From: Amoebophrya sp. A120
Lineage: Eukaryota; Protista; Dinoflagellata
Assembly: GCA_905178155.1 (NCBI GenBank)
Contig: CAJINV010000004.1
Coordinates: 94,969 to 158,968 of the forward strand
Direction: 5' to 3'
Length of the DNA stretch: 64,000 nucleotides
In this document: positions 821 to 62,949 of the stretch, piece after piece
Numbering within the stretch: position 1 is the stretch's first letter
Layout of the letters: each line of letters starts with the position of its first letter
Made by a program: the position numbers and the translations under genes
Notes under the pieces: generated by a model
What the model was told of the DNA's origin: nothing
Databases searched by the model: none
What the model saw: the letters and a program-made list of their open reading frames with translations, nothing else

Positions 821-3699
821 GTGGGCGAGGTGGTCCGCAAACGCAGGACGTATCGAGGGGACGACGACGACGACTCCGCGCTTGCAATGTTAATGTACGA
901 CGAGGACGATGAGGAGGACGACGAACCCGCGCAGCAAGTTTTACTAGTTCAAGACGTCGTCGATGCTACTACTCCAGCACAACTCGTCCAACATCCTGAC
1001 GCGACAGACGCCAACCGCGGTCAGCATGATTTCAACATAATTTCAGTTCGCAGTAAGAACAAGCACGACGATCCTGCTGTGGACGTCGTCGGCGATATCA
1101 GAAGCTGCACGCCAGAAGTTGTAGCGGTAGAAGCCGTCAAAAATGTTCTCGAGGTGCCTTCTGAAAGCACAAGCAGTATCCAAGTCACAGCCCAAGGTGA
1201 AGAAGATGGAGGTGCTGGAACAAGAGGAATAGTAAAGCCGGATGTTGTTGTAAATGAAAGAGCCCGAAGAGAAACATCGCGGGCGGTCCCCGTGGAGGTC
1301 GTGGGAGCCTCGCCACGGAGCGGCATGAAGACGGCAACAAGCGTGCCAAAAATAGAAGCGACAAAGATGAGTGCCAAGGACGCGATGAAGGCATGGCCAC
1401 CAGCACCAAGTTCGTTTGCGGAAAAAGTAGTAAAAGACGACAGCTGTAAGAATGCGGCGCACGCGTTTGAGCGCATAAGGAGAACAAGCCGAACTACCTC
1501 TACCGAGGACAAAATCGACAAGCTGTTAAATCGCAACCTGGTATCCAGGAAGAAACACGTATCCCCATCCAATTTGTAATGCAAAACACGCATAAAATCC
1601 CGGATTTGTCATGCAAAAAATGGATGGGGGTGGGTGTTGTTTCCTCGATACCTGGAGAACCGCATGGCAACCGCGAACGTGTTCCTCCGTCTTCAAAAGC
1701 GCGAAGAGCCACCACAGCGTGGTTCTTCATCTATTCATCTCATTATCGATTGTAAAGATTAGATTGTGCCTGGGTTCTGAGGCGAAGGCGCCGACTAGAG
1801 CAAGATGAAAAGTCAGGATTTCTGACCAGGGCTGGAAAATAATTGAGGAGAGCCGTATCGAAATAATTAAATTGCCTGTAGTCCACCCGTTCTTGTTATT
1901 CGAAAATCTGTATTGCTTGACCGAAATCAACAACAAAAGTGCAACTTTCTTTGTCATGCCAAATTCTTGCAAAAACGCTCCTCGTCCGCTCCTAATCTAT
2001 CATCCACAGTTCCGCATCACAAGTTTTATTCCACGTATTCTCGTCGAGAGGACCCAGACGTAGTAAGTTACAATGCATATTACCCATGAAGACGACGCCC
2101 GGCAGGAGCCAGCCAGCTGCCTCGGCGGACGAGCGGAAGGACAAAGAGCTGCTCCCGGAAGCCACAGAAGTGCAGCCTCGACCAACCGCCCAGGCGCAAC
2201 GGATAAAAAATAAAGGAAGCAAAAACGTCAGCAAACACCAAAAGTGCTCTACTAGTGGAAATGACAATGCAGCGCCCCAGCAGCCGGAACCCGAACCTCA
2301 AGAGGAAGGACGAAAAGGAAGCCTCGACATGATATCCAAATGAAATAAAGCGCCCCCCCTCGCCAGAAGCAGAAGTAGAACGAACAGTTGGTATAATTGG
2401 AAACTCTCTGTGCACCCCTGCTGCTCGTGTGGATGTGCAAGATGAGGGAATAAAAAGAACTCGGGGGGCGCAACTTTTACGCATGATTATCACGACTTCT
2501 GGTAAGATCGGGCATGGTGGGGGCGTTTGTTTCCCTCGAGGATAAGTCTATCAGCAACTGGAGGATCTGATTGTCTCTGCAAGGCAGCTGACCAGTACTC
2601 CAACCTTGTCGAAGTCGTCTCCTTTCGCTCAAGCAAAGTCGACGGCCGAGCTGCATTTGGATCATCACGCTAGTAAAACGAAAAGCGGGACATCAGGAAG
2701 GACACGACCGTCACGACCTACTGCGGACGATGAAGAAAATCATCTGGATCATCTGCTCTCGAGCAACAGCACCAAAGATGCGGTAGAGGACAAAGCGGTA
2801 GAATTAGATGCCGGCCCTCTTACAACAACAACATCTTCCGAGACGATCCAGACAAGAAGTGGTCCAAGTGCTTCGCCTGCTCGAGAAGATCGCAAGCCTG
2901 ACCACGGGCAAGAAGAATGCGCTGTATCTCTCGATGTAGGTGAAAGGCGCGAGGAGGAAATCAGGAACAACGTCGCCAGCACCGTCACGGCACCGGCAGA
3001 CGACGAAGCCGCACCAGGAACAAGAAATACTGGAGACACGAAGGATAAACAAGCAGGTCCTCGCGTACCGCTACTGCAAGCAGCAGGACGCGGCTTGTTC
3101 ATCCCACGAACATCTCCAGTCGTATCTCAGCGTGAAGACGAGCCCCGATCAAGTTCAAGTTCCTACACGGAAAACGATCATGATTCTGATCATCATCGAG
3201 CGGTGGACTCGGCGGCCGCTTCAGAATGTACACGTTCCGGTCCTCTGGGCGCATCGCTGATGCTCGGGAATAAAACGAATACGAATTCCAGCACAACTAG
3301 CAGGCAAAAAAGGGCCGATTGCTCAACAAGAACCTCCTCGGAGCCGGAAGTGGACCTGAATCGAGTAGAGTACCTTGATTGGGTTCTCAATAATAAGGGC
3401 ACGACATCGGGCGCCAATGCGAGGGCCCCCGATATTAATGAAGTACAGGAGGTGCATGGTGCAGGACCACAAGCACGACGTCGTTCTGCAGCAACTGTGC
3501 AACAAGATCTTGCACTAGCCTCGGCCTCTTCGCAGGCGCAGCCTCCATCATCTTCGCAGACTGCTGGTAGCGGGGGTGAAGCCGGTCGTGTTTGCTCACC
3601 AGAGGACCAGCACGACGTCGAGAGGAAGTTGAAGTTGTCAACGAACCCGCCCCGCAGACCTATGCCCTGCTCAGCTGGAACAAGCTCAGCTAGAGCAAG
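821..3699 (+). CDS. Exons of an unknown low-complexity protein; ends uncertain, may be the 5' part of the RING gene
   Basis: Long ORFs 821-1579, 2086-2343 and 2606-3703; removing 1542-1650 plus one DR continues the frame (NRNL|ENRMATANVFLRL); GTGAGT donor at 3700. Confidence 0.45.
1542..1650. mobile_element. Introner-like element, family F (109 bp)
   Basis: tatccaggaagaaacac...gtgttgtttcctcgata; DR cctgg/cctgg; homologous to 12764-12876. Confidence 0.9.
1744..2079. mobile_element. Decayed family A-like element
   Basis: tatcgattgtaa..gcctgggttct versus gacccagacg..ttacaatgcata; DR not recognisable. Confidence 0.4.
2333..2490. mobile_element. Decayed family C/E-like element
   Basis: tatccaaatgaaataaagcgcccccc...ggggggcgcaacttttacgcatgattat; flanks catga/cacga. 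Confidence 0.4.
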
Positions 3700-4024
3700 G
3701 TGAGTAAGTACTTATGTAGAGCTGGGTAGACTTGTCATGTCTTGCAAACGAGGGCACACGAGGACCAGACACGCCGAGTCTGCTTCTTTGTGCTTGCCCC
3801 TTGCTCGTGCTCCTACTGCAACTCTGCATGTGACAAACTTTGTGCAGATTTCAAGACGGAGGTCGTTTGGTAGGTACTAGACATTTGCCACGCTAGACTC
3901 CGCCATATGGCTAAAGCAGATCAGGCGCATTTTGCATGGCAAATTGATGCAATTAGAGATCGTTCTTGTTCTGAGTAGGCCATACAACGTGCGTGGGACG
4001 GTCCGTCCCCGAGCAGCGCAGGAG

Positions 4025-4573
4025 TATCCTGTGCAAAAGTATGACACAAATAACTCAACCAAAGGCAATTTACCATCCCCCATCAAGCAAAAAAATCAAC
4101 ACAGTAATCTACTTGTATTTGTAATGCAGCTAGTTGATCTGATCTAACTATCAGGCCACTAAACTAGCTAGCTAAATAAGGTGTTTTTGGATGGTGAAAG
4201 GAGCCCGGAGATGGACTCTGTTGGTCCACGGATTCGCCCGAATCCGTGGACCAACATAGTCCATCTCCGGGCTCCTTTCACCATGCAAAGACACCTTATC
4301 TAGCTACCTTAGTTAATTATAATTAGTACATTAAAAAGTGGCCTATTTTACATGCAATTATCTAGCCTGTTTTGCACTATCAATTTTTTTTTTTGATCCC
4401 CCATGGTGTTTTAGATTTGGTTGAGTTATTTGTGTCATAAAAAGAATCGTACTCGTATAAATGCAAGTCTTGCATTGCAAAATTTTTTTTTTTGAAAATA
4501 AATCAGCGTGACAAATTTTAATTCTCATCCTGAGTAATGCATTTATACGAGTACGATACATTTGCAGTTCATA
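4025..4573. mobile_element. Introner-like element, family B (reverse orientation), with nested hairpin
   Basis: tatcctgtgcaaaagtat...tacgagtacgatacatttgcagttcata; DR aggag/aggag. Confidence 0.85.
4169..4306. repeat. Near-perfect hairpin with ~65 bp arms (MITE-like), nested in the family B element
   Basis: ataaggtg...ggtccacggattcg cc cgaatccgtggacc...caccttat. Confidence 0.9.
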
Positions 4574-4579
4574 AGGAGG

Positions 4580-6342: not shown

Positions 6343-9300
6343 GTGGACCTCGACAAAGGACGAACTGCAAGCGGGAGAAATGCAAGCGTTGCTCCTGAAG
6401 GAAACGGACAAATCGGAGAAGAAGCTCCTGGAAGAAGTGCTAGAAATGTACTTTCAACGCCGTCGAAAGCGGATCAACATGATTTGGTGGATCATCCTCT
6501 CGACGTCGACTTGCTTCACGGCAGTAGCAAAACTGAACCGCCAGCATGTTGTGCCACGAACACCAATAAGAATAAAGAACTCGCTGAACTACAACAAGAT
6601 TCGGATACTACTCCACCTGGCCACGCTGACGCGGCATCTCCTTGCGTCGCTGAGTTCGCGGGGTCCAGAGGTCAAGGCTCTGCGTGGCAGCGGCACCAAA
6701 TAAGGACCAACTTTAATCGAAGCGGGATCGCATCCGGAGCCGCGTCGGCGGGACCACGGGAGGGAAATGACAAGCAAGAACATGATCGCCCAGACTACAC
6801 AGAACAAAGCCACAGCGCTTGCAAAAATGAAGGCAGCAAAGTTCTTGTTCCGCCTGTTGTGCTGGATGATGCTGCACCTTGTTCTGGTGGCAAGGAACAT
6901 GGCGACGAGGGGGCAAGAGTATTATCGCAAGCGCGACCTCCATCGAGTCGTGGCCTAGATTATCAAGCAAAAAAGTGTTAACGTTAACGGTTTTCCGCAG
7001 ATGGCAGTCAGGCATTACAAATTTTGCCTTCCATGCATGCTACGCAATACAAATTTGCGCACCTTTTCTGATGCGTCACTGCATCACAAATTCCGTTAAC
7101 GTTAACAATTTTTCTTGTGATATAGATGACGAGTCCACCGATGGCCCCGCCCGCGTGAAAAATATCAAAACCAAAAGTACAACTTCTATGCGGCCACCTA
7201 TCCTGAGTAAAAACATCCCCACCCCAGAGTTGTCATGCAGATTTGCAATTGCAGGAATCCGCATGTTGTGGAATCCGCATCACAAGTTCAAGAAGATCCG
7301 TGGGTCGTTCAAGAAGAAGATCCGTGGGTCGTACAAAAGTAAGTAGCTCGGTTCCAAGTCGTAGTTGTTTGTAATTCGGTAGGGAATAGAGCTAGATACT
7401 ATGACACATGCGCCGCGTTTGTTTTCGTAGCGTGACATACCTGCAGTAGCGTTTCAGTCTGGTTTTGCTAGAGTTGTCGAAAAAAAAAAAGCAGGTAAAG
7501 TTTTGCAGAATAAAAGCAGAATACAAGCACCTCCCCAGTGAAGGGGAGGCGCTTGCATGAAATTGTCTTTTTCTCACAAAAAACTTAGGACGTAGCTATT
7601 TGCTGCTATGTGCGGCTTCTCTTTTTTTTTTTCTCCCGGAGCCCGGACCTCCTCCTCCCGGACCCCGAGCCTTCTCCTCCCGGCGCCCGGGCCTCCTCCT
7701 CCTGGCGCCCGAGCCTCCTCCCCCCGCAGTCCGGGCCCCCTCCTCCCGCTGCCCGGACGTCCTCCTCCCGGAGCCCAGACCTCCTCCTCCCGGAGCCCGG
7801 ACCTCCCGGTCCAGGGCATCTGTTTCATCCGGTCCAGGGCGTAGACCCTTTCGCGCGGGTTTTTTTGGAGTTTGTTAGTCAGCAGGACCCTAAGTGGGAG
7901 TAGGGTGGATCCCTTCTGGGGAAGTGCCTCGCTTTTTCGGGATGTAACAGCCACTGATCCTGGTTGACTTGGAGCTGCTACCGCTTCAAGCATTTTCCGG
8001 CAACTTCTGCGCTGCGTGCGCTCATTCTAGACCCGGTTACCCGGGGGCAGGGAAATAACGTGGTCTGCGTGCCCGTGGTTGCGAGTTTGGGTTGCAGCTG
8101 CGCTTGCTTCGCAGGCTGTGTTCAGTCTGCTTTCTGTCTTCCCCTTGGGGGCAAGTGGGGCTGGGGCTGGCGCTGTTCCCCCCATTCAACCACCGGTGGT
8201 GGGGTTCTGGGGGGTCTTGCCCTGGGGGCCAGGTGGTGGTGGAGTGGGCCGCTCCCCGCTACGGAAGCTGGGCGCGGCCTGCTTGACCCAGCCCCAATAG
8301 GCGCGGTCCAACGGGCCGCTTGGGTGTGTGCTCTGGATAACACTCGGAAGGAACGCAACGAAATATGGCGTTCTCAACTGTTACATTCTCAACTGTTACA
8401 TGAATTTGTCATGCAAAAACAGCAACAGGGAAAGGGGAAAGCTTGCAAGTCTTGCATCACAAATTTGGCACGGATTCAGATGCTGTTTAGCCCTTCGATA
8501 ATTTGTCATGCGAAGCAGCTTGATCGGCTTGCGGCTCATGGTCATTTTGCATGACAAATCATGTAACAGTTGAGAATGTAACGTTTGAGAACGCCATAAT
8601 ATCAAAACCAAAAGTACAACTTCTATGCGGCCACCTATCCTGAGTAAAAACATCCCCACCCCAGAGTTGTCATGCAGATTTGCAATTGCAGGAATCCGCA
8701 TGTTGTGGAATCCGCATCACAAGTTCAAGAAGATCCGTGGGTCGTTCAAGTAGAAGATCCGTGGGTCGTACAAAAGTAAGTAGCTCGGTTCCAAGTCGTA
8801 GTTGTTTGTAATTCGGTAGGGAATAGAGCTAGATACTATGACACATGCGCCGCGTTTGTTTTCGTAGCGTGACATACCTGCAGTAGCGTTTCAGTCTGGT
8901 TTTGCTAGAGTTGTCGAAAAAAAAAAAGCAGGTAAAGTTTTGCAGAATAAAAGCAGAATACAAGCACCTCCCCAGTGAAGGGGAGGCGCTTGCATGAAAT
9001 TGTCTTTTTCTCACAAAAAACTTAGGACGTAGCTATTTGCTGCTATGTGCGGCTTCTCTTTTTTTTTTTCTCCCGGAGCCCGGACCTCCTCCTCCCGGAC
9101 CCCGAGCCTTCTCCTCCCGGCGCCCGGGCCTCCTCCTCCTGGCGCCCGAGCCTCCTCCCCCCGCAGTCCGGGCCCCCTCCTCCCGCTGCCCGGACGTCCT
9201 CCTCCCGGAGCCCAGACCTCCTCCTCCCGGAGCCCGGACCTCCCGGTCCAGGGCATCTGTTTCATCCGGTCCAGGGCGTAGACCCTTTCGCGCGGGTTTT

Positions 9301-12300
9301 TTTGGAGTTTGTTAGTCAGCAGGACCCTAAGTGGGAGTAGGGTGGATCCCTTCTGGGGAAGTGCCTCGCTTTTTCGGGATGTAACAGCCACTGATCCTGG
9401 TTGACTTGGAGCTGCTACCGCTTCAAGCATTTTCCGGCAACTTCTGCGCTGCGTGCGCTCATTCTAGACCCGGTTACCCGGGGGCAGGGAAATAACGTGG
9501 TCTGCGTGCCCGTGGTTGCGAGTTTGGGTTGCAGCTGCGCTTGCTTCGCAGGCTGTGTTCAGTCTGCTTTCTGTCTTCCCCTTGGGGGCAAGTGGGGCTG
9601 GGGCTGGCGCTGTTCCCCCCATTCAACCACCGGTGGTGGGGTTCTGGGGGGTCTTGCCCTGGGGGCCAGGTGGTGGTGGAGTGGGCCGCTCCCCGCTACG
9701 GAAGCTGGGCGCGGCCTGCTTGACCCAGCCCCAATAGGCGCGGTCCAACGGGCCGCTTGGGTGTGTGCTCTGGATAACACTCGGAAGGAACGCAACGAAA
9801 TATGGCGTTCTCAACTGTTACATTCTCAACTGTTACATGAATTTGTCATGCAAAAACAGCAACAGGGAAAGGGGAAAGCTTGCAAGTCTTGCATCACAAA
9901 TTTGGCACGGATTCAGATGCTGTTTAGCCCTTCGATAATTTGTCATGCGAAGCAGCTTGATCGGCTTGCGGCTCATGGTCATTTTGCATGACAAATCATG
10001 TAACAGTTGAGAATGTAACGTTTGAGAACGCCATAATATCAAAACCAAAAGTACAACTTCTATGCGGCCACCCACGAAAATATCAAAACGAAAAATCCCC
10101 CCTCCCCATATCAAAGCGGAAATCTGTGATGCAGATTTGTTGTCACAAATCAGCTTTGTTATGCTACACGGGAAAAGATGCGGACTGTAGTGCTGGGTGG
10201 CGTGGGGGAGCCTTGCATCTTCAGCATGATAGGAGGCAGCTGAGAGTGGGAAACAGCATGACAAATTGCCTGCAAACGAGACCACGACTGCGGCTCTTGG
10301 CCTTCTAGCATGACAAGTCGATTTGGTACCTCAAATCCTGCATCACAGATTTCCATTTCGATATGGGGAGGGGGGATTTTTCCGTTTGATAGAAAATGTC
10401 ATCGACCACCAGCACGACACCCGCAATCGACTGGGCAGAGGAACTGGCCAGCATCAAGGCCGCAAAACGCACCCTGGGTGCCGCGCGAGGAGGTGGAAGT
10501 GCTGGTGGACCCAGTTCTAGTAGCACAACTACAACTTTCACTTCGGTCCCGACCGCGGCTGCCCTTGCCAGTCCGCGCCCGCCAGTTTTGCCGCTTCCAC
10601 CTACTGGAGCTGCTACGACCAGCACGACCCCATCGTCATTTTTTTCAGACGGTCGATATAATTATGTCACTGAAAGAACTGAAGACAAAAGGTCCACTTC
10701 TCCAGGCGCTTTTTCTTTGTCTGTGGCACACCGCCGCTCTCTGGCTGCCACGAAGACGACGCGGAGTAGTTTTCCGAAAACAAAGACGCCTGAAGGTATG
10801 AGAACCGACGCTCATCGTGATAGCGCGCAACAAAGTAGCCAGCACAAAAAGGGTGCTGCAACGCGGGCAGAGGACCGTGGCTGTAGTTTGTGGTCAGCAG
10901 CATCTCCAAGTAACTTGCCGAGGACCAGCTGGGACGCAGAAGACCAGGATCAGGAATATGGCTACTCACTCAGGTGTTCTTACAAGCTCAGCTGTAGTTT
11001 TTACCACAAACAGGCGTGGACTTTGTCGTGCATGAGCAGCATGGGGAACATGCAGAGTCTTGCGCAAGCTTATCGCAATACTACAAATCTCGCCGGATGT
11101 CACGGGGGCTTCGGGCAGCTCCGGGACTACTTGTTATGCGCAATTCAGTGAGAGTAGGCCTAGCCCTACGCCAGATCGTGTCCTTCTTGATGCGCGTCGC
11201 AGTAGATTTCGACTCCTGTTGTAAGTAGAACGGTTGGCATTGTAAAACACCTGCGCAGGTCATAAAAAGAACGTAGTGGCTGATCATCTTTGCCCCGATT
11301 TGCAAAATAAGAACGAAGGCGACCTCTGGGCCGCTCTTGATGATAGTGACGACACCGGCGCTCTTGGTGCTGCCCAACATGAAGAGAGCGGAAGCGATAC
11401 GTCGCCAAGATGCGCTGTTCTCTCACACGGAACCTGGCGAGCAGAAGCACAAAGCCTCTGTAGGCCAACGACACACACAGGAGCGGCCATAGCAAGAGCT
11501 ACGCAAGGACAGCACCGTAATACTAGCAGGAGAAAACGAAACGTAGGAATAAAGATGCGGCAGAACGATCGTTACACCCTTACTTCATCTTCACAAAACG
11601 AAGACTCCGCGGCAACAGCGCAGCACCTATCTGCGAAAGAGATTCTAGCCAATCCCGAGGAGAACCAGATGCGAAAGCGGATGCAGCTGTCATTGGCGGA
11701 GATCTATCTTCTGCAAAAGTACTCGTCTAAATAATCGCGCTAGTCACACATGTTAACAGAGCAATCCGCATGACAAGTGCAAATCTGTATGAAGTTTTCC
11801 ACTTGATGAAATACATAGGTTGCCAACATGCAATTTCCACTGGTACGTACACGTAGTACGATTCCGATATATTTGAAGTTGAACTTTTGCAATGCATAAG
11901 ATGGCCGACGACTGGGATGCAAAGCGGGAACGGCTCGTGGCGGCGGCAGAAAAAAAGAGGCTGAGGAAAGCGTTGAACAGGGACGAAAGATTGTCCACAG
12001 GCCACATCAAGGAACTACAAAGCATTTCCATGCAAGAAAACCAAAACAACGGCAACAAGAATAGCCACGACGACGACCTGCGAAAAAATCGCGGAACACC
12101 ATCTAAAACCGGGGCGCCGTGGTCCTCAGAAGATATAATAACACGAAGTAGTACAAGAACTACTAGAAGCGGCGCCGGCGCGGCCCCGAGAAGAACACTT
12201 TCTGTAGCAGAAACAAACCTTCCTGGTCCAGAAAGATCTGATGTGCAGAACAACAAGTACCTCGGAGGGGGCGACACTACGCCGCATGGTACCCGCGTGC

Positions 12301-15300
12301 AGAAGATTTTGAAGGAATATGAAACTGTGGCTCACCGCGCTTCCCGCGATGGTGAAGAAACCGACATGCTGAATGATCCATGGTGCGGCGACCCTTCTAG
12401 CGCGGTAGAGATGGTGGACAAGCTAGAGGTACTAGAAGATCAACATGGGAGGAGGTGGAACAAAAGCAATGACTTTCATATGCTGAAGAACCATCAGCAC
12501 GGACCGTGCGGAAGATTCCTCTTCCCTGGGGGTGAAGGAGAAGTGTCTGCCTCTCCGACAGAACAAGCCCCAAGACTCTCGGAACTGGTCCTCGTGCACG
12601 ACCCGGTGGCTGCAGCTCCGAGGACTCGTGAAGATTTCGAGACCCTAGTCACCACCACGAAAGCAGCACCTTCCGACGCCGTGGTCGCATCAGCGTCGTC
12701 AAGGAGTAGTAAACTTCGTATCGTTTCGGAGATTGAAAGAGAACGAACGGAAATTGACCTGCATATCCAGGAAAAAACACCCATACCCATCCAATTTGTC
12801 ATGCACAGCATGCATAAAGAAAGTCCACTATTTGTCATGCAAAAAATGGATGGGGATGGTTGTTTTTTCCTGGATACTGCAGCTGGAAATGTTACAGCAA
12901 CAGCGCCGGATGAAGAAACAGCAAGGCCGTAGTTGTTCGAAGACGGGACCACGAGGAGCAGTAGAACTACATGGAGCAGAGGACCAAAAAGGCTGCGCCG
13001 TCGATGCTGGTGCGACCGAGCCCGAACAAGAAGCTGCGGAACCATGGGCTCCTGCACCTGGTGCAGCTTGTTCACGACCTTGCACGGGGAATTTTCATTC
13101 GCCAGGACCACGACTCCGACTGCTGGATCAACAGCAAAGAGAGGCGATCATGGGGGACCAGCGTGGATTTGACCCGGAGCTGCTGCGCGAGGAAAACAGG
13201 AACGACGAAGCCGGCGCCGGTGGCGAGGCAGCAGGGAGGGCAGGGACTACTTTTTGTTCATCTTTGCGCAGAACTACAAGCGGTGGGAACAAGCAGAAGA
13301 TGCGGGCGGACCAGGAAGTGGTAGCCGAAGGAGAAGTGGTGCAGCAAGTCCGTGGAGGTGAAGATGGAAATAACACGGACTCGTGCAATTATACCAAAAG
13401 TTGGGACAAAGGTAAAGCAAATGAGATGTTGACCACCAGGAGCAGCAGGTTGCAGCCAGCTCCTGCACTTGAAGTAGGAGCTGCACAACGAGAGGAGCTC
13501 GACGCCTCGCGCACCTCCGCGGATATTCATTGCAAAAGTATATTCGCACCCGTCGTAATTATTGCGGTCATGCGTGAGAACAAGAAGTCTCATTTTCTAT
13601 CTGTTCTAGCATGAAGCATACAGATTTGCTCCGTTTTGCATCTTCCTGAGAAAATTTGTAGATCATGCGATTTCCATTTCGATTTCTGCTACCACGATTA
13701 TACTTTTACGATGCATAGCGGAGATCCTGCGGCAACTGGTGTTCGACGTCGTTCCGGAAGTAGATGCAAATAAAGGCGACGCAGGTGCGGCTGGACGAGA
13801 TGTTGACCACGAGCAACATCCTTCCACTCATGCCTTGGATGAGGACGTCGACTTCTTACCACATCCCCCGAGGACGTCTTCCACCAGCACAAGCACCGCG
13901 TTCGCCGCGCGACACGAAGATTGGCTGGCACGGGCTGAGGGGCGAGGCGGAACATCAAATAAACACTCTGGAGCTGCTGGCCGCGGGGAAGACGAGGAGG
14001 GAGAACGTAGTACGGAAGTAGAACAACGCGTCGTGGCACGACGAGGCGAACGGGTGGAGCAGGTCGGTGACAGCGAGCAGGTAATGATCTTAAACAGACG
14101 CTCAAGTGGAACAGATGTGGAACAAGCACAACGTGAAGATGATCCGTATCACCTGCATTCGCAACAACTTTGTCCTGCCTCGTCAGAGGACTCACGGCCA
14201 GGGTCGGATGAAACCAATCTTCGCTCCTCCAACACTAGGATTTTGGCGGCAGAGGAGCCGCGAGCGGTGGACGATCTCTTCAGTTTCAACTTCGAACGTT
14301 ATTGAATGTGAAAAATACGTGATAGATGTACTTTTGTGAATGGACGGCGGCTGCACATCACATCTAGCTTCGCACGTTGACAACGATGAAGATGGCATGT
14401 TGCGCATGGAGGATGCCTCAACTTCAGCCTTCTGCTTCTCGGGGACCTTCTGGCGTCTGTATGACTTCCCTTGTAGATCACATAGTCGTGTTGGGAAAAG
14501 CAGGCGTGTCAACATACAACTACATTTTTCGTAGTTAACATTTTTCAGTATACGTATGCGATGTGCATGAGCGTCAGCGTCTATCTGGAATTCACAAATT
14601 TTTGCACTGCATATGGTTGATGTTCTTCAAGATGATAACTTTCTGTCAGCGCGACACGGGAACAACCACGACACGACCCGTCGAGGAGCGGCGGCTTCCA
14701 CATTGATTAGCAATACCGAGGGTCCTCGTGGTCGTCCTCTTTCCGCCGCGGCGCCCCGGGCTTCTGGGACGAGGACAGCGAGTAGTCGATTGCGGCAACC
14801 GCGGACCATCATGTCCCTGCTGCAGGGGAACAACACCAGCTGGGACGGAGCTTCCCGCGGCCCGGGCAGCTCAACAACAGGTACAACAATCCCAAGAGCT
14901 GCTGCATCTTCAGCATCTTCGTCGTCGCGGACGGACGCTCTGTTGCAGCAGCTGAATTCCAACGGCAACCTGGAGGAGGCACGCCCGGCAACCGCACCAC
15001 AGCAGCTGCAACGCCATGGAGTATCAAAATGAAAAATCCCCCCTCCCCATACCGAAAAGATTTAATATTTTTGGAAATTTATGATGCTGATTTGTGGTCA
15101 CAAATCGTGTCTGTCTTGCGAGAAGGCAACTCCGCAGGTTCCGCCGCATTGTGCAGGCGGTTTGTCATGCTGTGGGGCATACAGTGCTGACGTTTTTCGT
15201 GCTAAGTGCCTAGGCCAAAACCTCTCTACTCGTCACACTTGGCATGGGGCTGCAGTGCTCTCCAGCAAGACAGCGCGGCTCTGTGTACACAAGGCCAGCA

Positions 15301-18180: not shown

Positions 18181-18199
18181 ATGCCCCTGCGAATGCCCC

Positions 18200-20036: not shown

Positions 20037-21107
20037 ACGGCAGCACGCCCAGCTGCATGTAGACACACAAGTTAGTGCGCTTTGTGTCACCAGAAGCGTA
20101 AATAAAGATAAGTAACCCTTACAACTCTTTGTCTTTCTTTCTTTCCATGCCCGGGCATGGCGTCAATTGTTCGAGGCCCTAAAACATCCTTTGTTCAGAT
20201 CACGTCTCAGATCGCTCCGGTCAGCATCAAGCTCAATTTCTAAAAAAAAAACGTATTGTTTCTTGTGCAATAACAAATTCAGATCTAATATCCTGTTTCA
20301 TGAAAAAAGTATTCTCCTATCGAAAATCAAAATCTAACTAAACTCTCCTATAAGACATTTTCAAACGATGGTGTAGCTGTCTCGTATTTTGATCTTCTGA
20401 TGAAAAGTAAACTCTTTGTCTGACTCTTAAAGATCTATTCGTATAGTTGTATTTCCTAAAAGATAATCAGAATGTATGATCCTGATGTTGAAAGTTTGCC
20501 ACCCTGTTGAGAAACTCGCTGTGTAAGTGTAAAATAGGAAGCGGGTAAGTAGCATGGACGTGGGCAAAATCGACGATGACGCGCAGCGGATTAGGCGGCA
20601 ACATGATTTTCGACTCACTGTATTAGCTTCCAAGAGGAACCAGAAGTTGCCCGCGTATTGCTGCACTTTCCTGAAGGTACTTCTCTTCCGTTCTCTGCAC
20701 TGGATTGCATTTTTGAGATCTGCTGAAAATAAAAATAGTGTAAGTATGAGTATTTTTACAGGAAACTTGGCTCCGTGAAAAAATTACAAGCCTCTTAATC
20801 GATGTTGTCATCTGATCTCTTTAATTTCATTGTGCAAACAATAATCGCCAACAGCATTTGCAGTCGCAGCCACGAGGAAGGGTGACCACCGCGAGCTTGC
20901 CCATGACGTTGGAGAGAAAAGGCCCGGCAGAACCAGGAAACACTTCCTCAGCTGCAACCAGTCGTCAGGAGCATGATTGTGATTATGAATTCAACATTTC
21001 TTTTTGTTCATCATCTTCTAGGACTTACATAACAGCAAGATGTGGGAGACTTTTTTCCGGCCTGCCACCTTGAGAAGCGCACACGCAATTCTTTTTCTTC
21101 ATCATCA

Positions 21108-31042: not shown

Positions 31043-31131
31043 TGGTACGGAAAGCAGTGAATCGGCTTCCAGTGGAGAACAGCAGTTTCAAGTGGTACTC
31101 AAGGAAAAAAAATTTGCTAGTGTATGTCTGT

Positions 31132-51200: not shown

Positions 51201-53157
51201 CAATAGAAATTGGGCGGGGCGGATTGGTAAACGCGCGCTCAGCTGCGGTAGTGGGTCTCTGTTTCGGGCACATGACTGGATGGAATGTGCCCAGGTTTTG
51301 TGTGCCAGTTGGTGCTCCTACCACGCTTTGCAGCGAATCGCTTCCATGTATGCCCAGGACCTAGGCACTCAGCTCGGGCTCCTCTAGAACCTCTGCGCTA
51401 GGTACAAAGACGTTGGGATGCATTCTGTTTTGTGTTATTGTTGAAGCTGCTGCCTGGGAGACATGTTTATGACCGATCCTGGGAGTGCTTTTTGTGTAAA
51501 GGCTTTCCTTCGTGATCTTCTCCAGCCCCTCTTTCTTTCAGAGTATTGTGGTATAGCTTGCGGGACGTCGATAGGCCCGGCTTCACGCCGAAGGGCTTTT
51601 CGACAACGTTTCGGAAGAGGGATTCCGATACTCCAAAGGGCCTGCAGTAAAGCAAGCCAACTCAAGAGGCCCCGGCTCTTGAGAAATCTCCTCTCGCCAG
51701 ATTCAAAAAATAGTTGGAAATAAGTTGGAAGCCAACTTTTTTCTGTTTCCCATACTAAGAATCCCTGATCCAACTAGTTTTGAACTTGTGTCCAACTTAT
51801 TCCCAACTTTTTTTTTGAAATTGCCCAGGGCCGCCAATTTCTTTTTGAATTGTCTCGGGGGCGCCAATTTCTTTTTGAATTCCATCTCACCCGCCAATTT
51901 CTTTTTGAATTCCGTTCAGGCCGCCAATTTCATTTTGAAATTGCTCAGGCCCGCCAATTTCCTTTTGAAAGTGGGCACTCTGTATGATGTCGCTATGGTA
52001 TTGATTTGGTCTGTGTCCTGGGATATATGTTAGGCCCTAACGAGGCCCGCTCAATCGGGGGGAGAGGCTGCCTCTGGGCTATCTTTCGGCCGCTCCGGGA
52101 ACAGAATTGCGTTGGCCCCGTGCGCTGCGGCTTTGCGCGGGCGTGGTGTCTGTCAGAGGAATTGCCGAGGGCCCATGGCGGCCCAATCTGAAGCGGCCAC
52201 GCCATTTTCCAGAGCTTGTGGCCGTGCCAATTCCAAGCCACACACCCTCCCGAATGAAGCACGCGCAAAAGTGGATGGCCTTGCGTTATTCAAGCAACTT
52301 ACCCCGCGCGGGCACACGGCATAGGGCCCAAGAATGGCCCGCATCCGGGTCGCGGTCTTTCATTTTGGCGGGAGATTCGGCATTTCTATGGGAAGGCGAA
52401 AGTTGAAAACCTTGACTTTTTGAATTCCTTTTGAAATCAACATTTTGAATATGAATTAACGCCAGGGCGCTTTGTGATTAACGGTTGTGCATAGAATATA
52501 GTCGATGGTAAATTTTTTCAAGATCTCTAGCGGCAAAATGAAAAAAAATCCTGCGAGGCTCACAGTGGAAGCAGGATAGAAGGCTCGTCTCTTCTAATTA
52601 TATTGTGCTGTTTGAAAACTATTTATTATGCGGTGATTTTTGCGACGCTCCTGGTTTCCGTTAAAAAGCACAGCTTCCTCTTCTAAATTGCATTTTCGTA
52701 AAGTAGGTAAAGGTGTATTAAAAACTCTCGGCCCGCGACCCGCTTGTCATGATGAAATAAGTAGAGTTGTGCAGTACTTCATCTAACTTGCAGCTCTTGA
52801 CGAGCTTGGTCCTTCTCCTTTTGCCGGCGCAGCACATCACAGAACTTCTCCTTTCCTCGGTGATACAGGCCCGCGTACGTGTATATGATGATCGAGGCGC
52901 TTAGTGACGGTGGCGTGAAAAACGGGTTGCCCCGGGCACTGGCCCTCCAGCTTGCCGCGCAGACGGTGATGGGTAGCGCCAAGATGGTGCTCGAGAAGGG
53001 TGAGCACCCAGCCGTGCTGAAAAATCAAGTGGAGTCCCCCGCCGGGACAACGATCGCCGGCACGGCGAAGCTCGAGGAGCAGGGCTTTCGGAACGCCATC
53101 GTGCAGGCAGTTTCTGCGGCAACGCAGCGCAGCGCGGAACTCGGCGCGAAAAAGTGA
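48212..53157 (+). CDS. proC: Pyrroline-5-carboxylate reductase
   Basis: Spliced motifs [16 protein letters not shown]; SD|VILIAVKPQ; SIMAGVTL; VRVMP|NTPAMV; [11 protein letters not shown]|[39 protein letters not shown]; [11 protein letters not shown]; four TAT-type elements and a GT-AG intron at 50575-50855. Confidence 0.95.
48426..49613. mobile_element. Family B-ended element of 1188 bp with cargo (proC intron 1)
   Basis: tatcctgtgcaaaagtatcgtactcgtataaatccgct...agcggatttatacgagtgcgatacttttgcacaggata; DR cgacg/cgacg. Confidence 0.93.
48811..48944. repeat. Hairpin with ~65 bp arms inside proC intron 1
   Basis: cttcgagcttttggaggcgtcatgcaa gttt ttgcatgacgcctccaaaagctcgaag core, extending to cacttctcgacgaac/gttcgtcgagaagtg. 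Confidence 0.9.
49784..50092. mobile_element. Aged family A element with a TAC left end
   Basis: tacgcattgcaaat..gtctgggtctgg...gacccagagtacatatttgcgatccata; DR gctac/actgc; joins GVTL|QTLG. Confidence 0.8.
50152..50441. mobile_element. Family A element (reverse orientation)
   Basis: tatcaactgcaaatatgtgtgggtc...gacccagacctatttgcagttgata; DR gccaa/gccca; splits the MPNTP motif. Confidence 0.88.
50908..52865. mobile_element. 1958-bp aged TAT...ATA intron with structured cargo
   Basis: tatcgaccgag..gtagttct / agaacttctc..ctcggtgata; removing the element plus 5 nt restores SGSGPAY. Confidence 0.8.
51801..51970. repeat. 30-bp-period array of ccgccaatttctttttgaatt with 9-bp variable spacers
   Basis: Units at 51831, 51861, 51891, 51921 and 51951; degenerate unit at 51801. 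Confidence 0.9.
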
Positions 53158-57246: not shown

Positions 57247-59075
57247 ATGCTAAGTTTTATTTTATCTACAAACATCAGCAATAGCAACTGCGCAGTGGCA
57301 TTTCGTTTTTCGTGTGCAGCTGCAATTCCCAGACCCGGGTCGGTGTTTCCCTCTGGTTTTTCAATTGATAGAAGCAGCACGACGAACGCGATGTCTACGC
57401 CAACCCCGCGCCTTGCGCAGTCCGCACACGCGAGCTTGGGCGCAACTAGTTCGACTGGGTTGCAGCTGCACGACAGCGCCGGCCCAACATCGACCGCACC
57501 AGCCGCTGGCAGCAACGAGCAGCGGCTTTACGGCGGCTCATCGAATAGTACGTCGCCCGGCGGAGAGCTGCACCAGGGCCAGGTAAACCATGCTACAGGT
57601 GCACGTCGGCCAGGAGATCACCTCCATGGGCAGAATCTATGCATTGCAGAAGTATCGTACTAGTATAAATTGCAGACACAAACTTTGGCGAGAAGAAAAG
57701 TGGAATTTGTAATGCTGTTTTACCTTAGGAGGGAGATTTGTCATTCATATTTGCAATTAGTACGACTACGATATTTTTGCACAGGATAGCATTTATCCAC
57801 AGCCAAGACGCCTCCACCGAGCAAGCAGCACGCCTTTGCCGCGGGCAACAGCTCTACTTCGTATATTGGCACAACTACTAGCACTACACCACCGTCGACT
57901 ACAGGACCGTCGGCCCGGGGCGGCCAGCATGCTGGTGCTGCAACAGGCTACGAGCGAGGATCTTGGGGGGCGGGAGGTGGTAACAGCACTGGAAATAAGA
58001 ACGTGGGTGTTGTATTGTGAGGAAAAATCCCCCCTCCCCATATCGAAAAGGCATGCTTTTCAAAATTGGCGATGCTGATTTGTGGTCGCAGATCGAGTCT
58101 GTCTTGCAAGAGAGCAAAGCCAGGGCCTCCGCTGCATTTCGCAGGCGATTTGTATGCATAGCCAGGACTTCCGCATGCTGCTACGCTACTAGGGCAGACA
58201 TCTGCCATGCTCAGTGCCTACCCCACGCCACCCCTTTCCGGGCTTTGTATCTGTCTACAGTCCTCCGCCGCAAGACAAATCCACAAATCCTGCGTCACAG
58301 ATTTCCATTTCGATATGGGGAGGGGGGATTTTTCCATACGATATCTTGCGGGGGTCAATCCGCCTCCTCCGCCCGCTCCGCTAATCCGAGGACACCATCA
58401 TGCGGCGTACCTATGCAACAAAAAAAGTGTGGAAGTAAGTGTAAGTCTGTGATGCAGAAAATGTACTAAAAAAAAATGCAGCAAAACAGTTACGGTTGTC
58501 ATGCTGGCCAGCCATTATAGTGTTCTTTTTTTATGCGTGTTTTCAATGCTACTAGCTGTGCATGACAGGAATTTTCTGTCATGTAGAACGAATTTGTCAT
58601 AATGCTGTGACCGCCCCAAGACGCCTACTCTAACGCTAACGCAGTTTTTTTCTTGGATAGTACCAGCAACGCTTTCACAGCTCTAGCAGCGGCGTAAATA
58701 ATACGTCCTCGTCAGGAGGTCTCGGAACCGGAACCGCCGCGACAGGTGGCGCGGCCGGAGCAGGGCAGCACTTATGGACTGCAAAAGGATCGCGCTTTTT
58801 TCTACTTGTCGTGTGCAAAGTCATTATTATCAATAGATTCCAGATAATTTCGTGCTTCTGAAAGTAGCACTGTTCTTGATAGACGAATTTAGATTTACTA
58901 CACAGCAGTACTAGAGCAGATGACAACTTCTACTTTGTTGGAGTAAGACACATCTACTAAGTCGGTGCTCCTGCAGCTTGCCACGACACAGATATTATAA
59001 TCGTAACAGGAGGTGATGATCCTTTTGCACAGGATAGTGGCAGTACTCCCAGCAACAGCACCCGAATTCGGTGAA
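57247..59075 (+). CDS. Probable multi-exon gene, S/T/G/Q-rich unknown protein
   Basis: ORF 57247-57663 followed by GC-rich segments between four TAT...ATA elements; no domain recognised; boundaries uncertain. Confidence 0.35.
57638..57788. mobile_element. Family B element
   Basis: tatgcattgcagaagtatcgtactagta...tacgatatttttgcacaggata; DR gaatc/gcatt. Confidence 0.8.
58013..58343. mobile_element. Family C element
   Basis: tattgtgaggaaaaatcccccctccccatatcgaaa...tttcgatatggggaggggggatttttccatacgata; DR tgttg/tcttg. Confidence 0.9.
58412..58659. mobile_element. Family G-like element
   Basis: tatgcaacaaaaaaagtgtg...cgcagtttttttcttggata; DR gtacc/gtacc. Confidence 0.82.
58773..59036. mobile_element. 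Decayed family B-like element
   Basis: tatggactgcaaaaggatc...gatccttttgcacaggata; DR lost. Confidence 0.6.
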
Positions 59076-60325: not shown

Positions 60326-60474
60326 TATGAATTGCAAAAGTATCGTACTCGTATGAAAGCATTACAAATTTCCTCAGCATGAGAAATAAAATTTGTAATG
60401 TAGATTTGCCTTGGAAACAAGACTTGTAATGCAGGACTTGCATTTATACGAGTGCGATACTTTTGCACAGGATA
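60326..60474. mobile_element. Family B element
   Basis: tatgaattgcaaaagtatcgtactcgta...tacgagtgcgatacttttgcacaggata; DR cttgt/cttgt. Confidence 0.92.
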
Positions 60475-60808
60475 CTTGTCACTCGCTGGCAATCAATTGA
60501 CGGGGAAGGCAAGCGGGCTAGTTTCAGGTAGAAGAACGACTTCTGCGATTGAACATTTTTGAAAACAAGATGAAAACCTACAGTACGAACAATAATAACT
60601 CATCTGCGAAGGGGGCTTTCCTGTTGTAGGAAGCTTGTGCTTGTATAGAAGAAGTACTTTCCTCCTTGCAAATATGGTGCTGTCTACTTTTCTTTGATTG
60701 ATATTAACAATCAAAGAAAAGTAGACAGCACCAAAAAATTAAATGATTCCTGTGGATTCTTACAAGACTAATAAACTACGTACAAACTCATTCACATCTA
60801 CTCTGCAG

Positions 60809-62949
60809 ATATGATCGAACTGGGGGTGTGGGAAGAGCTTGTATCCCGTACAACAGCATCGCACTCGTAGTAATTGCGATTATCTATGCATTCATACAAA
60901 TCTTCATCCCAGGGTAAAACATTTGTCATGCAGCTGAGGTAGTTTATTGTAATGCAATTACCACTGGTACGATGCTGTTGCAATGCATAGCTTGACGTCA
61001 GTTGCAACTACTTCGAAAACGGGGACTTGCTCGATTTCGTGCGCCGAGCGGTGTTCTCCGGGAAGTACCCGAAACAGGTGAACATGCCCGTAGCGGCAAA
61101 AACGGAATTACCCTCATCCAGCGTTGGAGGAACAAGTAATGCACTACAAGAACCTCCAGTCGCTGGGGACAACGAAACGAGTGGAAAAAATGGCTATCAT
61201 GTATCGAGCAAAAATCTGTTATCGTTTATCGAATTGACAATTTGAAGCGAAAGCGACTATTTTTTTAAAGTTAGCTAGTGAGGGAGCTATCTTTGGCCCC
61301 GACTATTTTGATGTAGTTAGGTGCGATCGGTCACCCTTCTGGGGCAGCAAACGCTGAACGAGACGCGACCGATCTTGAGGTGGTGGCGGTCGGGTTCCAG
61401 TGTCGCGCTGGCATCCCAGGCCGGACTCGACGTCCGATCTTTGCCTCATGTCGCAATTCCGCCTGAGAACGCCAAAAGAGTAGACGAAGACCACCTTGCC
61501 CGAGAAAGCTCATGCGAAATACCTGCCACTGCGGTTGCAGAAGTGCCGGCAAAAGAGGAGAGATGAGGCGCAACGAATACGGATCGGCCTCATCCTGTAG
61601 TCTCAGCTTCAGCCCCGAGGAGGGCTCAGACACCGCCTCGCTCTGTCTGCCCACCATCTCGCGGCCACCATCGTCGCCGGGCTCTGACCAGACAACTGAT
61701 TGTTGTCTTGTTATCGGTTTGGCCTTCCGAACCGATAAGAGGCATTTAAACACGGCGGCACGCGGACTATAAAAGTGACCAAAAATGGTGCTTGTTATCG
61801 GTTTTGCCGGAGGCCTCTGAAAAATAGGCAATTTGGGAGGTCAAAGTTGCCGGATTTCCGAGTCCCTGTCCAAAACCGATAACATCGACGCTTTTTGGTC
61901 ACTTTTATAGTCCGCGTGGCACCGCGCTTAGCTCCATTTTTCAGGCCAGATCCCGGCGACGATGGTGGCCGCAAGATGGCGGGCAGGCAAAGGGGGGCGG
62001 TGCCCCGGTCTTGCTCGGTGCTGAGACGGGGAGTACAGGATGAGACGGAGCGGCATTCTTGTTGCCTCGTCCCTCCTCTTCCGCCGGCACTTTTGCAACC
62101 GCAGTGGCAGGCTTTTCGTGTGAGCTCTCCCGGATAAGCTGGCTTTCGTGCACTCTTCTGGCGTTCTCAGGCGGGATTGCGAGTGGGGCCAAGATCGGAC
62201 GTTGAGTCTGCCCCAGGATGATTTGCGCGGCATCGGAACCCGACCGCCAGCACCTCACGATCGGCCACGTCTCGCTCGCCGTCTGCTGCCCCAGAAGGAT
62301 GACCAAATGCACACAACTGGATCAAAATAATCATGACAAAAGGTAGCTTCTTCAGCAGCTAACTTTAAAAAAATTTTCGCTTTCGGTTGCAATCGTTTAT
62401 TCGATAACGATAACAGATTTTTGTTCGAGAACCTCCAGTCGCTGGGGACATCGAGACGAGTGGAAAAAATGGCTATCATACCGCGACGAACCAAAATGCG
62501 ACTTCTACTGCGGCACCCAACGGCATCAATCAAGGGCCACAGCTACTATCCAATGGCGTCGCTAGCGGAAGGGGCACGCCGACCAGTGCCAGAACCAGGT
62601 CCGTGCCACTCTTGCTGCGGTTACACAGCTATGCATTCTTGCAAAAGTCATATCGTACTAGTAGAAGTCGCATTTTTTTACAAATATCGCTCAGCATGAA
62701 GAGAAATGACAATGGGATTTGTCACACGGCCGCACCTTAAGAAGGGGGTTAGGGTTTGTCATGATGCATGATTGCGATTACTACGAATGCGACGCTTTTG
62801 CAGTGCATAACAGCAACCACGAGGCAGAGCTGGAAAAGGAAGCGCGAGCGGCGCTAGTGGCGGAGTTCGGGGACCGGCTGCAATTTGTGGAAAACACGAC
62901 TCTATCCACTACAAAAGTCTTTAAAATCGTACTTGCATTTGGGAAGTAG
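60809..62949 (+). CDS. Partial gene for an unknown protein with one LRR-like motif; upstream exons likely near 60.2-60.5 kb
   Basis: Manual splice: MIELGVWEEL|DVSCNYFENGDLLDFVRRAVFSGKYPKQ...GKNGYH|TATNQNAT...PLLLRLHS|NHEAELEKEARAALVAEFGDRLQF. Confidence 0.5.
60842..60989. mobile_element. Family B element (reverse orientation)
   Basis: tatcccgtacaacagcatcgcactcgta...gtacgatgctgttgcaatgcata; DR gcttg/gcttg. Confidence 0.85.
61152..62480. mobile_element. 1229-bp foldback element with family G-like ends, flanked by 50-bp direct repeats of exon sequence
   Basis: DR acctccagtcgctggggaca.cga.acgagtggaaaaaatggctatcat at 61152 and 62431; arms about 61202-61807 versus 61871-62430 are diverged inverted copies. 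Confidence 0.9.
62630..62809. mobile_element. Aged family B element
   Basis: tatgcattcttgcaaaagtcatatcgtactagtag...ctacgaatgcgacgcttttgcagtgcata; DR acagc/acagc. Confidence 0.82.

What the first reader, a model, noticed from the sequence alone, without database searches (positions are those of the whole stretch)
1542..62809. About 40 TAT...ATA inverted-repeat elements that behave as precisely removed non-canonical introns
Seen: element plus exactly one 5-bp DR must be removed to restore invariant motifs, e.g. Pro[17 protein letters not shown] and SG|PAY, GAF DATQD|RRF, RING CPLC and PPPDE GTE|YFF. At least 8 TIR families share only a TAT-N~7-AAA(A) type end. Known from memory: similar introner elements were reported in Amoebophrya genomes, with the removal mechanism unresolved. 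Inference: structure-defined splicing, or possibly DNA-level excision.
Basis: partly seen in the sequence, partly recalled or inferred. Interest (0 to 1): 0.8.

Follow-up and report, generated by a model that had tools for sequence, protein, structure and literature searches.

The report
Amoebophrya hairpin introns with fixed cut
Genes of the parasitic alga-killer Amoebophrya A120 are riddled with transposon-like inserts already published as non-standard introns; here each is missing from the gene product together with exactly five extra bases, likely cut one base before and four bases after its paired ends, which would give a testable rule for a splicing route nobody has yet explained.

Summary
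Confirmed, and already published. Exons match deposited Amoebophrya sp. A120 proteins at 100%. I curated 51 candidates; 25 TAT…ATA pairs with an exact 5-bp repeat pass a strict scan, against 0–2 in shuffles. Removing element+5 nt reproduces four deposited proteins at 23 junctions; RNA-like contigs show the same loss, while a DNA-like run keeps the elements. Only 1 of 51 can be read as GT-AG.

Not found in the papers searched: imperfect repeats fit only one cut register, N-UAU…AUA-NNNN (−1/+4). Repeat identity is not needed (1 of 5 matches at 14300). The families also share an inner TGTNATGC motif. The register puts U and A at intron +2/+3, as in this window's GT-AG introns, so a U1-less spliceosome is my best guess (~0.55); a separate nuclease/ligase is the rival. 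DNA-level excision is unlikely. The scan noted similar hairpin-bounded introns in other protist genomes. A second read lay was not available, so the register rests mostly on transcript-derived proteins.

The parts
10062..16477 (+). Host gene 1: 1282-aa protein with C-terminal RING finger, split by 10 elements
   Evidence: P0124 maps exon by exon; Pfam zf-RING_2 E 1.5e-9
10081..10391 (.). TAT…ATA element, repeat GAAAA; removed +5
   Evidence: P0124
10957..11264 (.). Degenerate element, flanks AGGAA/AAAAG; at least 3 upstream letters kept
   Evidence: P0124
11705..11898 (.). Element, flanks AGATC/AGATG; fifth letter comes from the downstream copy
   Evidence: P0124 reads E-M-A
12764..12876 (.). 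Element, repeat CTGCA; removed +5
13524..13717 (.). Element, repeat GCGGA; removed +5
14300..14613 (.). Element whose flanks match at only 1 of 5 (AACGT/TGGTT), still removed +5; at least 4 upstream letters kept
   Evidence: P0124 reads F-E-R-D
15022..15348 (.). Element, repeat TGGAG; removed +5
15434..15794 (.). Element, repeat TCCGC; removed +5
15842..16096 (.). Element, repeat CCACG; removed +5
16256..16395 (.). Element, repeat ACGTG, inside the RING; removed +5
20554..27745 (+). Host gene 2 (first 1914 of 2080 aa): GAF-domain protein, 4 elements plus GT-AG intron 20677-20854
   Evidence: P0122; Pfam GAF
21267..21625 (.). Element, flanks CCCGG/CCTGT; at least 3 upstream letters kept
21921..22209 (.). 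Element, repeat ACTTC; removed +5
22572..22883 (.). Element, flanks GAGGT/GAGGC; at most 4 upstream letters kept; the only one also readable as GT-AG
22960..23244 (.). Element, repeat GGACC, inside the GAF domain; removed +5
40023..42690 (+). Host gene 3: PPPDE peptidase, 5 elements plus GT-AG intron 41840-42092
   Evidence: P0121
40189..40496 (.). Element, repeat CGAGT; removed +5
   Evidence: X3 record 9 leaves the genome at 40183
40542..40752 (.). Element, flanks AACTC/GACTT; 1-4 upstream letters kept
   Evidence: P0121 reads N-F
40946..41270 (.). Element ending in ACA, repeat GAAGA; removed +5
41340..41744 (.). Element, flanks GCCGA/GCGGG; at most 4 upstream letters kept
   Evidence: P0121 reads A-G-H
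42182..42458 (.). Element, flanks AGAAA/CGAAA; first letter from the upstream copy
   Evidence: X3 record 10 and X6 record 17 start at 42460
43257..43473 (.). Element, repeat CCCCA; absent from an RNA-like contig
   Evidence: X3 record 11 rejoins at 43473
44165..44487 (.). Element, repeat AGCTG; 328 nt (323+5) skipped in an RNA-like contig
   Evidence: X3 record 11 joins 44159 to 44488
48212..53157 (+). Host gene 4: pyrroline-5-carboxylate reductase (proC), 4 elements plus GT-AG intron 50575-50855
   Evidence: model identical to P0001, 299 aa; X6 record 22
48426..49613 (.). 1188-nt element, repeat CGACG; removed +5
49784..50092 (.). Element starting TAC, flanks GCTAC/ACTGC; removed +5
50152..50441 (.). 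Element, flanks GCCAA/GCCCA; removed +5
50908..52865 (.). 1958-nt element, flanks AGGAC/CAGGC; at least 4 upstream letters kept
   Evidence: X3 record 15 and X6 record 22 start at 52870; SGSGPAY needs at least 2
1542..1650 (.). Element, repeat CCTGG; removal not tested
4025..4573 (.). Element (repeat AGGAG) holding a nested element 4040-4439 with its own repeat AAAAG; removal not tested
6961..7122 (.). Element, repeat TAGAT; removal not tested
30730..31271 (.). Two elements (30730-31042; 31132-31271 starting CAT); removal not tested
33523..38965 (.). Seven elements: 33523-33832, 33949-34224, 34298-34606, 35706-36027, 36081-36342, 37274-38376 (6-bp repeat), 38693-38965; removal not tested
57638..59036 (.). 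Four elements: 57638-57788, 58013-58343, 58412-58659, 58773-59036; removal not tested
60326..63130 (.). Four elements: 60326-60474, 60842-60989, 62630-62809, 62903-63130; removal not tested

Best explanation
These are the non-autonomous, transposon-like introner elements of Amoebophrya A120, which are missing from transcripts together with five extra bases and are likely spliced out by a modified spliceosome that cuts one base before the opening UAU and four bases after the closing AUA. Step 1, inferred: a transposase acting in trans inserts them in either orientation with a 5-bp target duplication. Step 2, shown: the mature product lacks element+5 nt, so an insertion anywhere in an exon is silent. 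Step 3, strongly indicated: the cuts are counted from the element ends (intron = N-UAU…AUA-NNNN) and do not depend on the two repeat copies matching. Step 4, inferred: the opening N-U-A is read like this organism's G-U-A donors with +1 relaxed, and the paired ends stand in for the undetected U1 snRNA and set the 3' cut. Odds: identity with the published elements 0.99; RNA-level removal 0.93; single −1/+4 register 0.8; spliceosomal chemistry 0.55.
For: Identity: window exons match named A120 proteins at 100% (P0122 carries a GSA120 id), and Farhat's A120 end motif is TAT+7 nt+AAA. Duplication length: in 72 complete copies from another assembly, with the partner end picked on the inverted repeat alone, 57 have an exact 5-bp repeat and none an exact 3, 4, 6, 7 or 8; no target preference; length+5 mod 3 is 26/23/23. 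Nesting and both orientations within a family fit DNA transposition. Removal: element+5 reproduces P0001 and P0121 whole, P0122 residues 109-1914, and all 10 junctions of P0124. X3 record 11 skips 328 = 323+5 nt; X6 record 22 holds the predicted 403 nt between 48420 and 52870; X3 records 9 and 10 hold the predicted 234 and 88 nt. Register, as number of upstream repeat letters kept: >=4 at 50908 (RNA-like contigs) and 14300; <=4 at 11705, 40542, 41340 and 22572; >=3 at 21267 and 10957; >=1 at 42182. Only 4 fits all. I noted 4 after two sites; six later sites agreed (chance about 0.05 if the cut were random, my arithmetic). Deposited models came from BLAT alignment of transcripts. All 9 top A120 non-canonical classes in Farhat's Table S4 have T at +2, with all four first letters, and all 9 in A25 begin TT. 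The three GT-AG introns examined begin GTA. Family members in opposite orientation are both removed (22960 and 50152), so the signal lies in the symmetric ends.
Against: Seven of the nine register constraints come from deposited proteins, not from reads seen here. 22572 can also be read as GT-AG and its paralogue P0123 has the upstream letter (V), so it is not independent. X3 and X6 are only guessed to be RNA, are assembled contigs and belong to one study. Table S4 and the Gozashti splice-site counts are open to aligner bias: acceptors there are 30-50% AG/AC. No lariat, branch point or protein was observed. A stem over +2 to +6 would have to be unwound for U6 pairing (own knowledge). In-register pairing of the first base is predicted at p<0.3 in 8 of 23 folded introns, which weakens a strict hairpin ruler. 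No transposase was found: 6 long-element ORFs had no Pfam hit, and Farhat found none in A120.
Confidence: 0.55

Rival explanations
1. RNA-level removal at the same −1/+4 register, but by a non-spliceosomal machine: a hairpin-end endonuclease makes a staggered cut and a ligase joins the exons, releasing a linear or circular intron, as proposed for euglenid nonconventional introns.
For: No terminal dinucleotide is conserved at either cut. Strong end-to-end stems in most elements: z <= -3 in 17 of 23, about 20 expected end pairs in many. Euglena introns need N3 and N5-6 spacers around a paired motif, a similar 5'/3' asymmetry, and circularise (PMC12501133, abstract and Discussion). U1 snRNA was not detected in Amoebophrya.
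Against: U/A at +2/+3 is shared with the GT-AG introns and with A25's TT-A starts. Introns with weak predicted pairing are still removed exactly (14300, 15022, 11705). The spliceosome is otherwise nearly complete, 83 of 89 proteins. Fritillaria shows a spliceosome can adapt to transposon-derived non-canonical introns.
Confidence: 0.3
2. RNA-level removal guided by the direct repeat itself, with the cut free to fall anywhere within the repeat (template-switch-like or homology-guided joining).
For: 28 of 49 elements have perfect repeats, where the cut cannot be placed. Farhat describe the splice sites as variable relative to the hairpin. Reverse-transcriptase template switching can skip hairpins between short repeats (own knowledge).
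Against: 14300 (1 of 5 match), 10957 and 50908 (2 of 5) are removed with exactly +5, and all nine informative sites fit one register. An artefact cannot explain intact conserved proteins such as ProC.
Confidence: 0.1
3. Programmed or transposase-driven precise excision from DNA in a somatic or trophic stage, like ciliate internal eliminated sequences.
For: Inverted ends plus one lost repeat copy resemble precise transposon excision; elements start and end with TA-containing triplets. Only one DNA-like run was laid, and contigs drop rare variants.
Against: X1 contigs at depth 23-34 cross junctions and whole elements (40946, 41340, 42182, 49784) with no differences. RNA-like runs also hold element sequence, as expected of pre-mRNA. 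The letters kept follow transcript direction: upstream 1-4, downstream 5. No separate germline nucleus is known in this parasite, so excision would be inherited (own knowledge). X1 may be the sample the window came from, so it is not independent.
Confidence: 0.04
4. The elements are ordinary MITE insertions in dead genes, or ordinary GT-AG introns using nearby sites.
For: 25 of 49 have some frame-keeping GT…AG pair within about 15 nt.
Against: 24 of 49 have none; 1 of 51 slides into GT-AG; deposited proteins and contig lengths need exactly +5. ProC keeps its conserved motifs and is 77% identical to the A25 orthologue over the last exon.
Confidence: 0.01

Closest known systems
Introner elements (IEs) among the non-canonical introns of Amoebophrya sp. 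A120 (Farhat et al. 2021, PMC7789003; Gozashti et al. 2025, PMC12130899)
   Same: Same genome, same end motif (TAT, 7 nt, AAA), inverted ends, short direct repeat over the exon border (5 bp in their Fig. S19 legend), lengths near 240 nt, many families, no internal transposase.
   Different: They give 3-5 nt repeats and call the splice position variable or unknown. Here the duplication is uniformly 5 bp, the cut fits one −1/+4 register, repeat identity is dispensable and an inner motif is shared. I saw passages, section 10, supplement part 2 and Table S4/S5/S7 rows, but not their figures, which may show part of this.
Euglenid nonconventional introns (Nomura et al. 2025, PMC12501133)
   Same: No GT-AG, paired ends, MITE-like origin, fixed and unequal spacers between the paired motif and the two cuts.
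   Different: Motif CDG/CHG with N3 and N5-6 spacers and a purine starting the next exon; reported as circular RNA. Here TAT/ATA with spacers 1 and 4, and no exon preference seen.
Fritillaria borealis non-canonical introns (review PMC11282704; bioRxiv 10.1101/2025.08.15.670264)
   Same: Transposon-derived, TIR+TSD, genome-wide, non-GT-AG.
   Different: Preferred AG-AC/AG-AT ends and spliceosomal removal with duplicated U2AF and retained U1. In A120 no terminal dinucleotide is fixed and U1 was not found.
MITEs (non-autonomous TIR DNA transposons) with 5-bp target duplication
   Same: TIRs, fixed-length TSD, no coding capacity, nesting, both orientations, sub-terminal repeated motif.
   Different: They sit in exons and are removed from the product; no matching autonomous element was identified here.

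Membership tests
Amoebophrya A120 introner elements | Located in the Amoebophrya A120 genome | tested here: met
   100% identity of exons to named A120 proteins; spliced ProC model equals P0001
Amoebophrya A120 introner elements | Terminal inverted repeat starting TAT, about 7 variable nt, then an A-run | tested here: met
   End logo of 102 ends: A at positions 11-13 in 80, 80, 88; definition
Amoebophrya A120 introner elements | 3-5 nt direct repeat overlapping the exon/intron border | tested here: met
   28 of 49 perfect 5-bp repeats; 57 of 72 in another assembly
Amoebophrya A120 introner elements | Removed from transcripts without GT-AG ends | tested here: met
   RNA-like contigs, 23 junctions in deposited proteins; 1 of 51 readable as GT-AG
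Amoebophrya A120 introner elements | Repeated in families | tested here: met
   6 multi-copy groups in the window; 83 loci for one end motif in metagenome contigs
U2-type spliceosomal intron | GT/GC donor and AG acceptor | tested here: not met
   1 of 51; only +2 U and +3 A are shared
U2-type spliceosomal intron | Lariat intermediate with branch adenosine; dependence on snRNPs | not testable with these tools
   no lariat data; not in print in a search for Amoebophrya+intron+lariat
Euglenid-type nonconventional intron | N3CDG…CHGN5-6|R signature | tested here: not met
   ends are N-TAT…ATA-N4 against the signature
Euglenid-type nonconventional intron | Release as circular RNA | not testable with these tools
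   no raw reads of this strain were available (X9 laid 14 reads)
MITE / non-autonomous TIR transposon | TIRs, fixed-length TSD, no coding capacity | tested here: met
   no Pfam hit in 6 ORFs of the two longest proC elements
MITE / non-autonomous TIR transposon | Autonomous partner with matching ends | not testable with these tools
   no whole genome held
Programmed DNA elimination (IES-like) | Element-free DNA form of the same locus | tested here: not met
   X1 contigs cross elements intact; one run only, rare forms would be missed
Self-splicing or other Rfam RNA family | Match to a curated RNA model | tested here: not met
   0 matches at gathering score in the whole window

The most novel reading that the evidence does not exclude
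Amoebophrya runs a U1-independent spliceosome that needs neither G+1 nor a terminal AG: it reads U-A at +2/+3 and measures the 3' cut 4 nt past a paired AUA. This one register exactly cancels a 5-bp target duplication, so any transposon with TAT ends becomes a perfect intron at any position and in either orientation, explaining some 30,000 new introns.
Probability: 0.4. Interest if true: 0.82.

Novelty: already known. Interest (0 to 1): 0.45.

Why it matters
The elements are published, but how two thirds of A120's introns are removed is still open. A fixed −1/+4 register turns 'variable splice sites' into one rule. It says where to look for branch points or circle junctions, links the non-canonical donors to the canonical G-U-A, would correct thousands of gene models at imperfect repeats, and explains why such transposons can invade exons at no cost.

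Tried and rejected
No whole genome is held, so no genome-wide test of the register and no search for an autonomous transposon. No listed holder was on record as RNA. The one raw RNA run laid (X9, 1 of 3 offered) gave 14 reads, all partial, so it told nothing. In one search the joint table was swamped by repeat copies from X1; true joints were read from the piece table, which showed 24 of about 21,220 rows. A second, RNA-only lay gave no result, leaving junction letters at 40542, 41340, 49784 and 50152 unseen in reads. Stop-codon tests on unannotated genes did not separate +5 from other lengths in 5 of 7 chains (+5 was clearly best only for 43215-45090, and for 60811 only in keeping the ATG frame), so those elements are listed as untested. 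The end motif had 0 matches in viral contigs. Pfam found nothing in long-element ORFs, and Rfam nothing in the window. I considered the inner GCATNACA motif as a branch point and rejected it as a requirement: it is missing from 17 of 47 short elements, including verified introns 10957, 13524, 41340 and 42182. A cut exactly at TAT with the whole downstream copy removed (my first idea) was rejected by 11705, 40542 and 41340. Nearby GT-AG use and pseudogene status were rejected (see rivals).

Full report
Observation. I read the whole window and scanned all TAT…ATA pairs. Twenty-five have at least 9 of 14 complementary end bases and an exact 5-bp flanking repeat; 20 shuffles gave 0-2. A looser filter gave 49 hits against 7-22 in shuffles, so degenerate copies were accepted only with family similarity, clear ends or protein evidence. 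The curated set is 51 elements of 109-1958 nt, 26% of the window.

Identity. The last proC exon matches a protein named Amoebophrya sp. A120 at 100%; so does the first PPPDE exon, and the GAF exon matches a GSA120 gene model. Farhat et al. 2021 (PMC7789003; I read keyword passages, the outline, section 10, supplement part 2 and rows of Tables S4, S5, S7, but no figures) report 65% non-canonical introns in A120, with inverted repeats that start TAT, run seven looser bases and end in at least three A, 3-5 nt direct repeats, 29,850 repeated copies, no U1 snRNA and no explained mechanism. Gozashti et al. 2025 (PMC12130899; passages and 20 of 58 A120 rows of one dataset; two supplement files not searched) class most of the A120 families I saw as TIR DNA elements. 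The finding is therefore these published elements in their own genome.

Origin. A 27-base end motif found 83 loci in metagenome contigs and none in viral contigs. Of 84 matches, 9 lacked room and 3 lacked a partner end. Of the 72 complete copies, 57 had an exact 5-bp duplication, 8 had one mismatch, and none had an exact 3, 4, 6, 7 or 8; the target had no strong base preference and length+5 was even modulo 3. Nesting, both orientations within families and a shared inner motif fit MITEs moved by a transposase in trans. No such enzyme was found in 6 ORFs of the two longest proC elements.

Removal. Taking out each element plus 5 nt gives P0001 exactly; +5 was the best of 0-9 at all four proC junctions against an HMM of 119 homologues. 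The same rule gives P0121 whole, P0122 residues 109-1914 and all ten P0124 junctions: 23 junctions. The deposited models were built from BLAT-aligned transcripts. In the one read lay (33301-53300; 4 of 11 runs offered), RNA-like contigs agree. X3 record 11 joins 44159 to 44488 (328 = 323+5). X6 record 22 holds 403 nt between 48420 and 52870, as predicted. X3 record 9 has 234 nt beyond 40183 and record 10 has 88 nt before 42460, both as predicted up to the next fork. DNA-like run X1, at depth 23-34 in unique stretches, crosses whole elements without a difference. Caveats: X3 and X6 are guessed RNA from one study, X1 may be the source sample, and contigs hide rare forms. One of 51 elements (22572) can be slid into GT-AG; 24 of 49 have no frame-keeping GT…AG pair nearby.

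Where the cuts fall. With perfect repeats the cut cannot be placed. Imperfect ones show how many upstream letters (c) are kept. RNA-like contigs resume at 52870 and 42460, giving c>=4 at 50908 and c>=1 at 42182. Proteins give 1-4 at 40542, <=4 at 41340, 11705 and 22572, >=3 at 21267 and 10957, and >=4 at 14300. Only c=4 fits all nine: the intron is N-UAU…AUA-NNNN. I recorded this after two sites. The six later sites agreed, which a random cut would give about 5% of the time (my arithmetic; about 6% without 22572). 22572 is weak because a GT-AG reading exists and the paralogue carries the other letter. At 14300 the flanks match at 1 of 5 letters, yet exactly 5 nt go, so the ends and not the repeat set the cut. 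Farhat's Table S4 lists nine leading A120 classes, all N-T donors with all four first letters, and nine A25 classes, all TT. This fits, but aligner preferences could contribute, as the AG/AC excess among acceptors shows. I found no statement of this register in the papers returned by five Amoebophrya searches; unseen figures S19-S25 and papers outside the library may bear on this.

Mechanism. With c=4, intron positions +2/+3 are U-A, as in the three GT-AG introns examined (GTA). Tolerated variants are UAC at the start (49784) and ACA at the end (40946). Members of one family are removed in either orientation, so interior signals are not needed, and the inner motif is absent from several verified introns. 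Most elements fold end to end (z <= -3 in 17 of 23; 12 shuffles each), but the first pair is predicted at p<0.3 in 8 of 23. I therefore favour a spliceosome with relaxed +1 and 3' dinucleotide, in which the paired or protein-bridged ends replace U1 and set the 3' cut (0.55). Fritillaria is a precedent for such adaptation (review passages; preprint abstract). The rival is a dedicated nuclease/ligase like that proposed for Euglena, whose introns also use fixed unequal spacers (abstract and Discussion of PMC12501133) (0.3). Repeat-guided joining (0.1) and DNA excision (0.04) fit poorly. Nothing here shows a lariat, a circle or a protein.

Earlier scan notes. None exist for this genome. Four notes from other genomes describe hairpin-bounded or position-cut non-canonical introns; I read them after forming my view and did not test them.

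Verdict. Real, correctly read and already known. Added value: a uniform 5-bp duplication, a single −1/+4 cut register that is independent of repeat identity, and a shared inner motif, which make the open splicing question directly testable. Interest 0.45; boldest reading 0.4 likely, 0.82 if true.

Noticed in passing
window 7161-10072, 16696-18180, 18200-20039, 29111-30315, 36466-37269, 45240-46748: A second class of inserts: 0.7-1.8 kb, 54-67% GC, each flanked by long direct repeats of 38-65 bp and almost unrelated to each other. 7161-10072 is a tandem pair 99.9% identical over 1475 nt (recent duplication or assembly artefact).
   Followed up: partly
window 61149-62479: A 1.2-kb largely palindromic element with a TAT left end and an AGA right end, flanked by a 52-bp duplication inside an open frame. 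The −1/+4 rule keeps the frame open and would retain the duplication as a peptide repeat (219 vs 204 aa in my partial model). Untested.
   Followed up: partly
window elements, about 41-46 nt from each end: Shared inverted motif TGTNATGC/GCATNACA across unrelated families, about 20-fold enriched inside elements; a likely transposase-binding site. 'Subterminal' and 'internal motif' do not occur in Farhat's main text.
   Followed up: partly
window 4025-4573: One element nested in another with its own 5-bp duplication; the host minus the insert is 144 nt with 119 identities to element 60326-60474 reversed.
   Followed up: yes
window 44090-44599: In DNA-like run X1, a diverged contig of depth 35.6 ends at 44160 and resumes at 44487 (table 3): probably a paralogue lacking this element (an empty site). 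Its letters at the junction were not shown.
   Followed up: no
P0123: An 88%-identical A120 paralogue of the GAF gene exists elsewhere; it has V where P0122 has A at the 22572 junction.
   Followed up: partly
window 4580-4943, 5605-5879, 28757-28885, 35220-35342, 43064-43208: Decayed elements that have lost the flanking repeat or an end, none tied to a protein here.
   Followed up: no
L001-L083 (contigs JACKZZ01…): All 80 listed hits of the end motif in the metagenome collection come from one assembly with 78-89% similar copies of these families; it could serve to find empty sites and autonomous elements.
   Followed up: partly
window 53612-53690 and 48811-48944: Near-perfect hairpins: 39-bp arms in the spacer after proC; 65-bp arms inside the 1188-nt element.
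   Followed up: no
window 43215-45083: Unnamed gene with a weak F5/8 type C hit below cut-off (E 4e-4), carrying two elements.
   Followed up: partly
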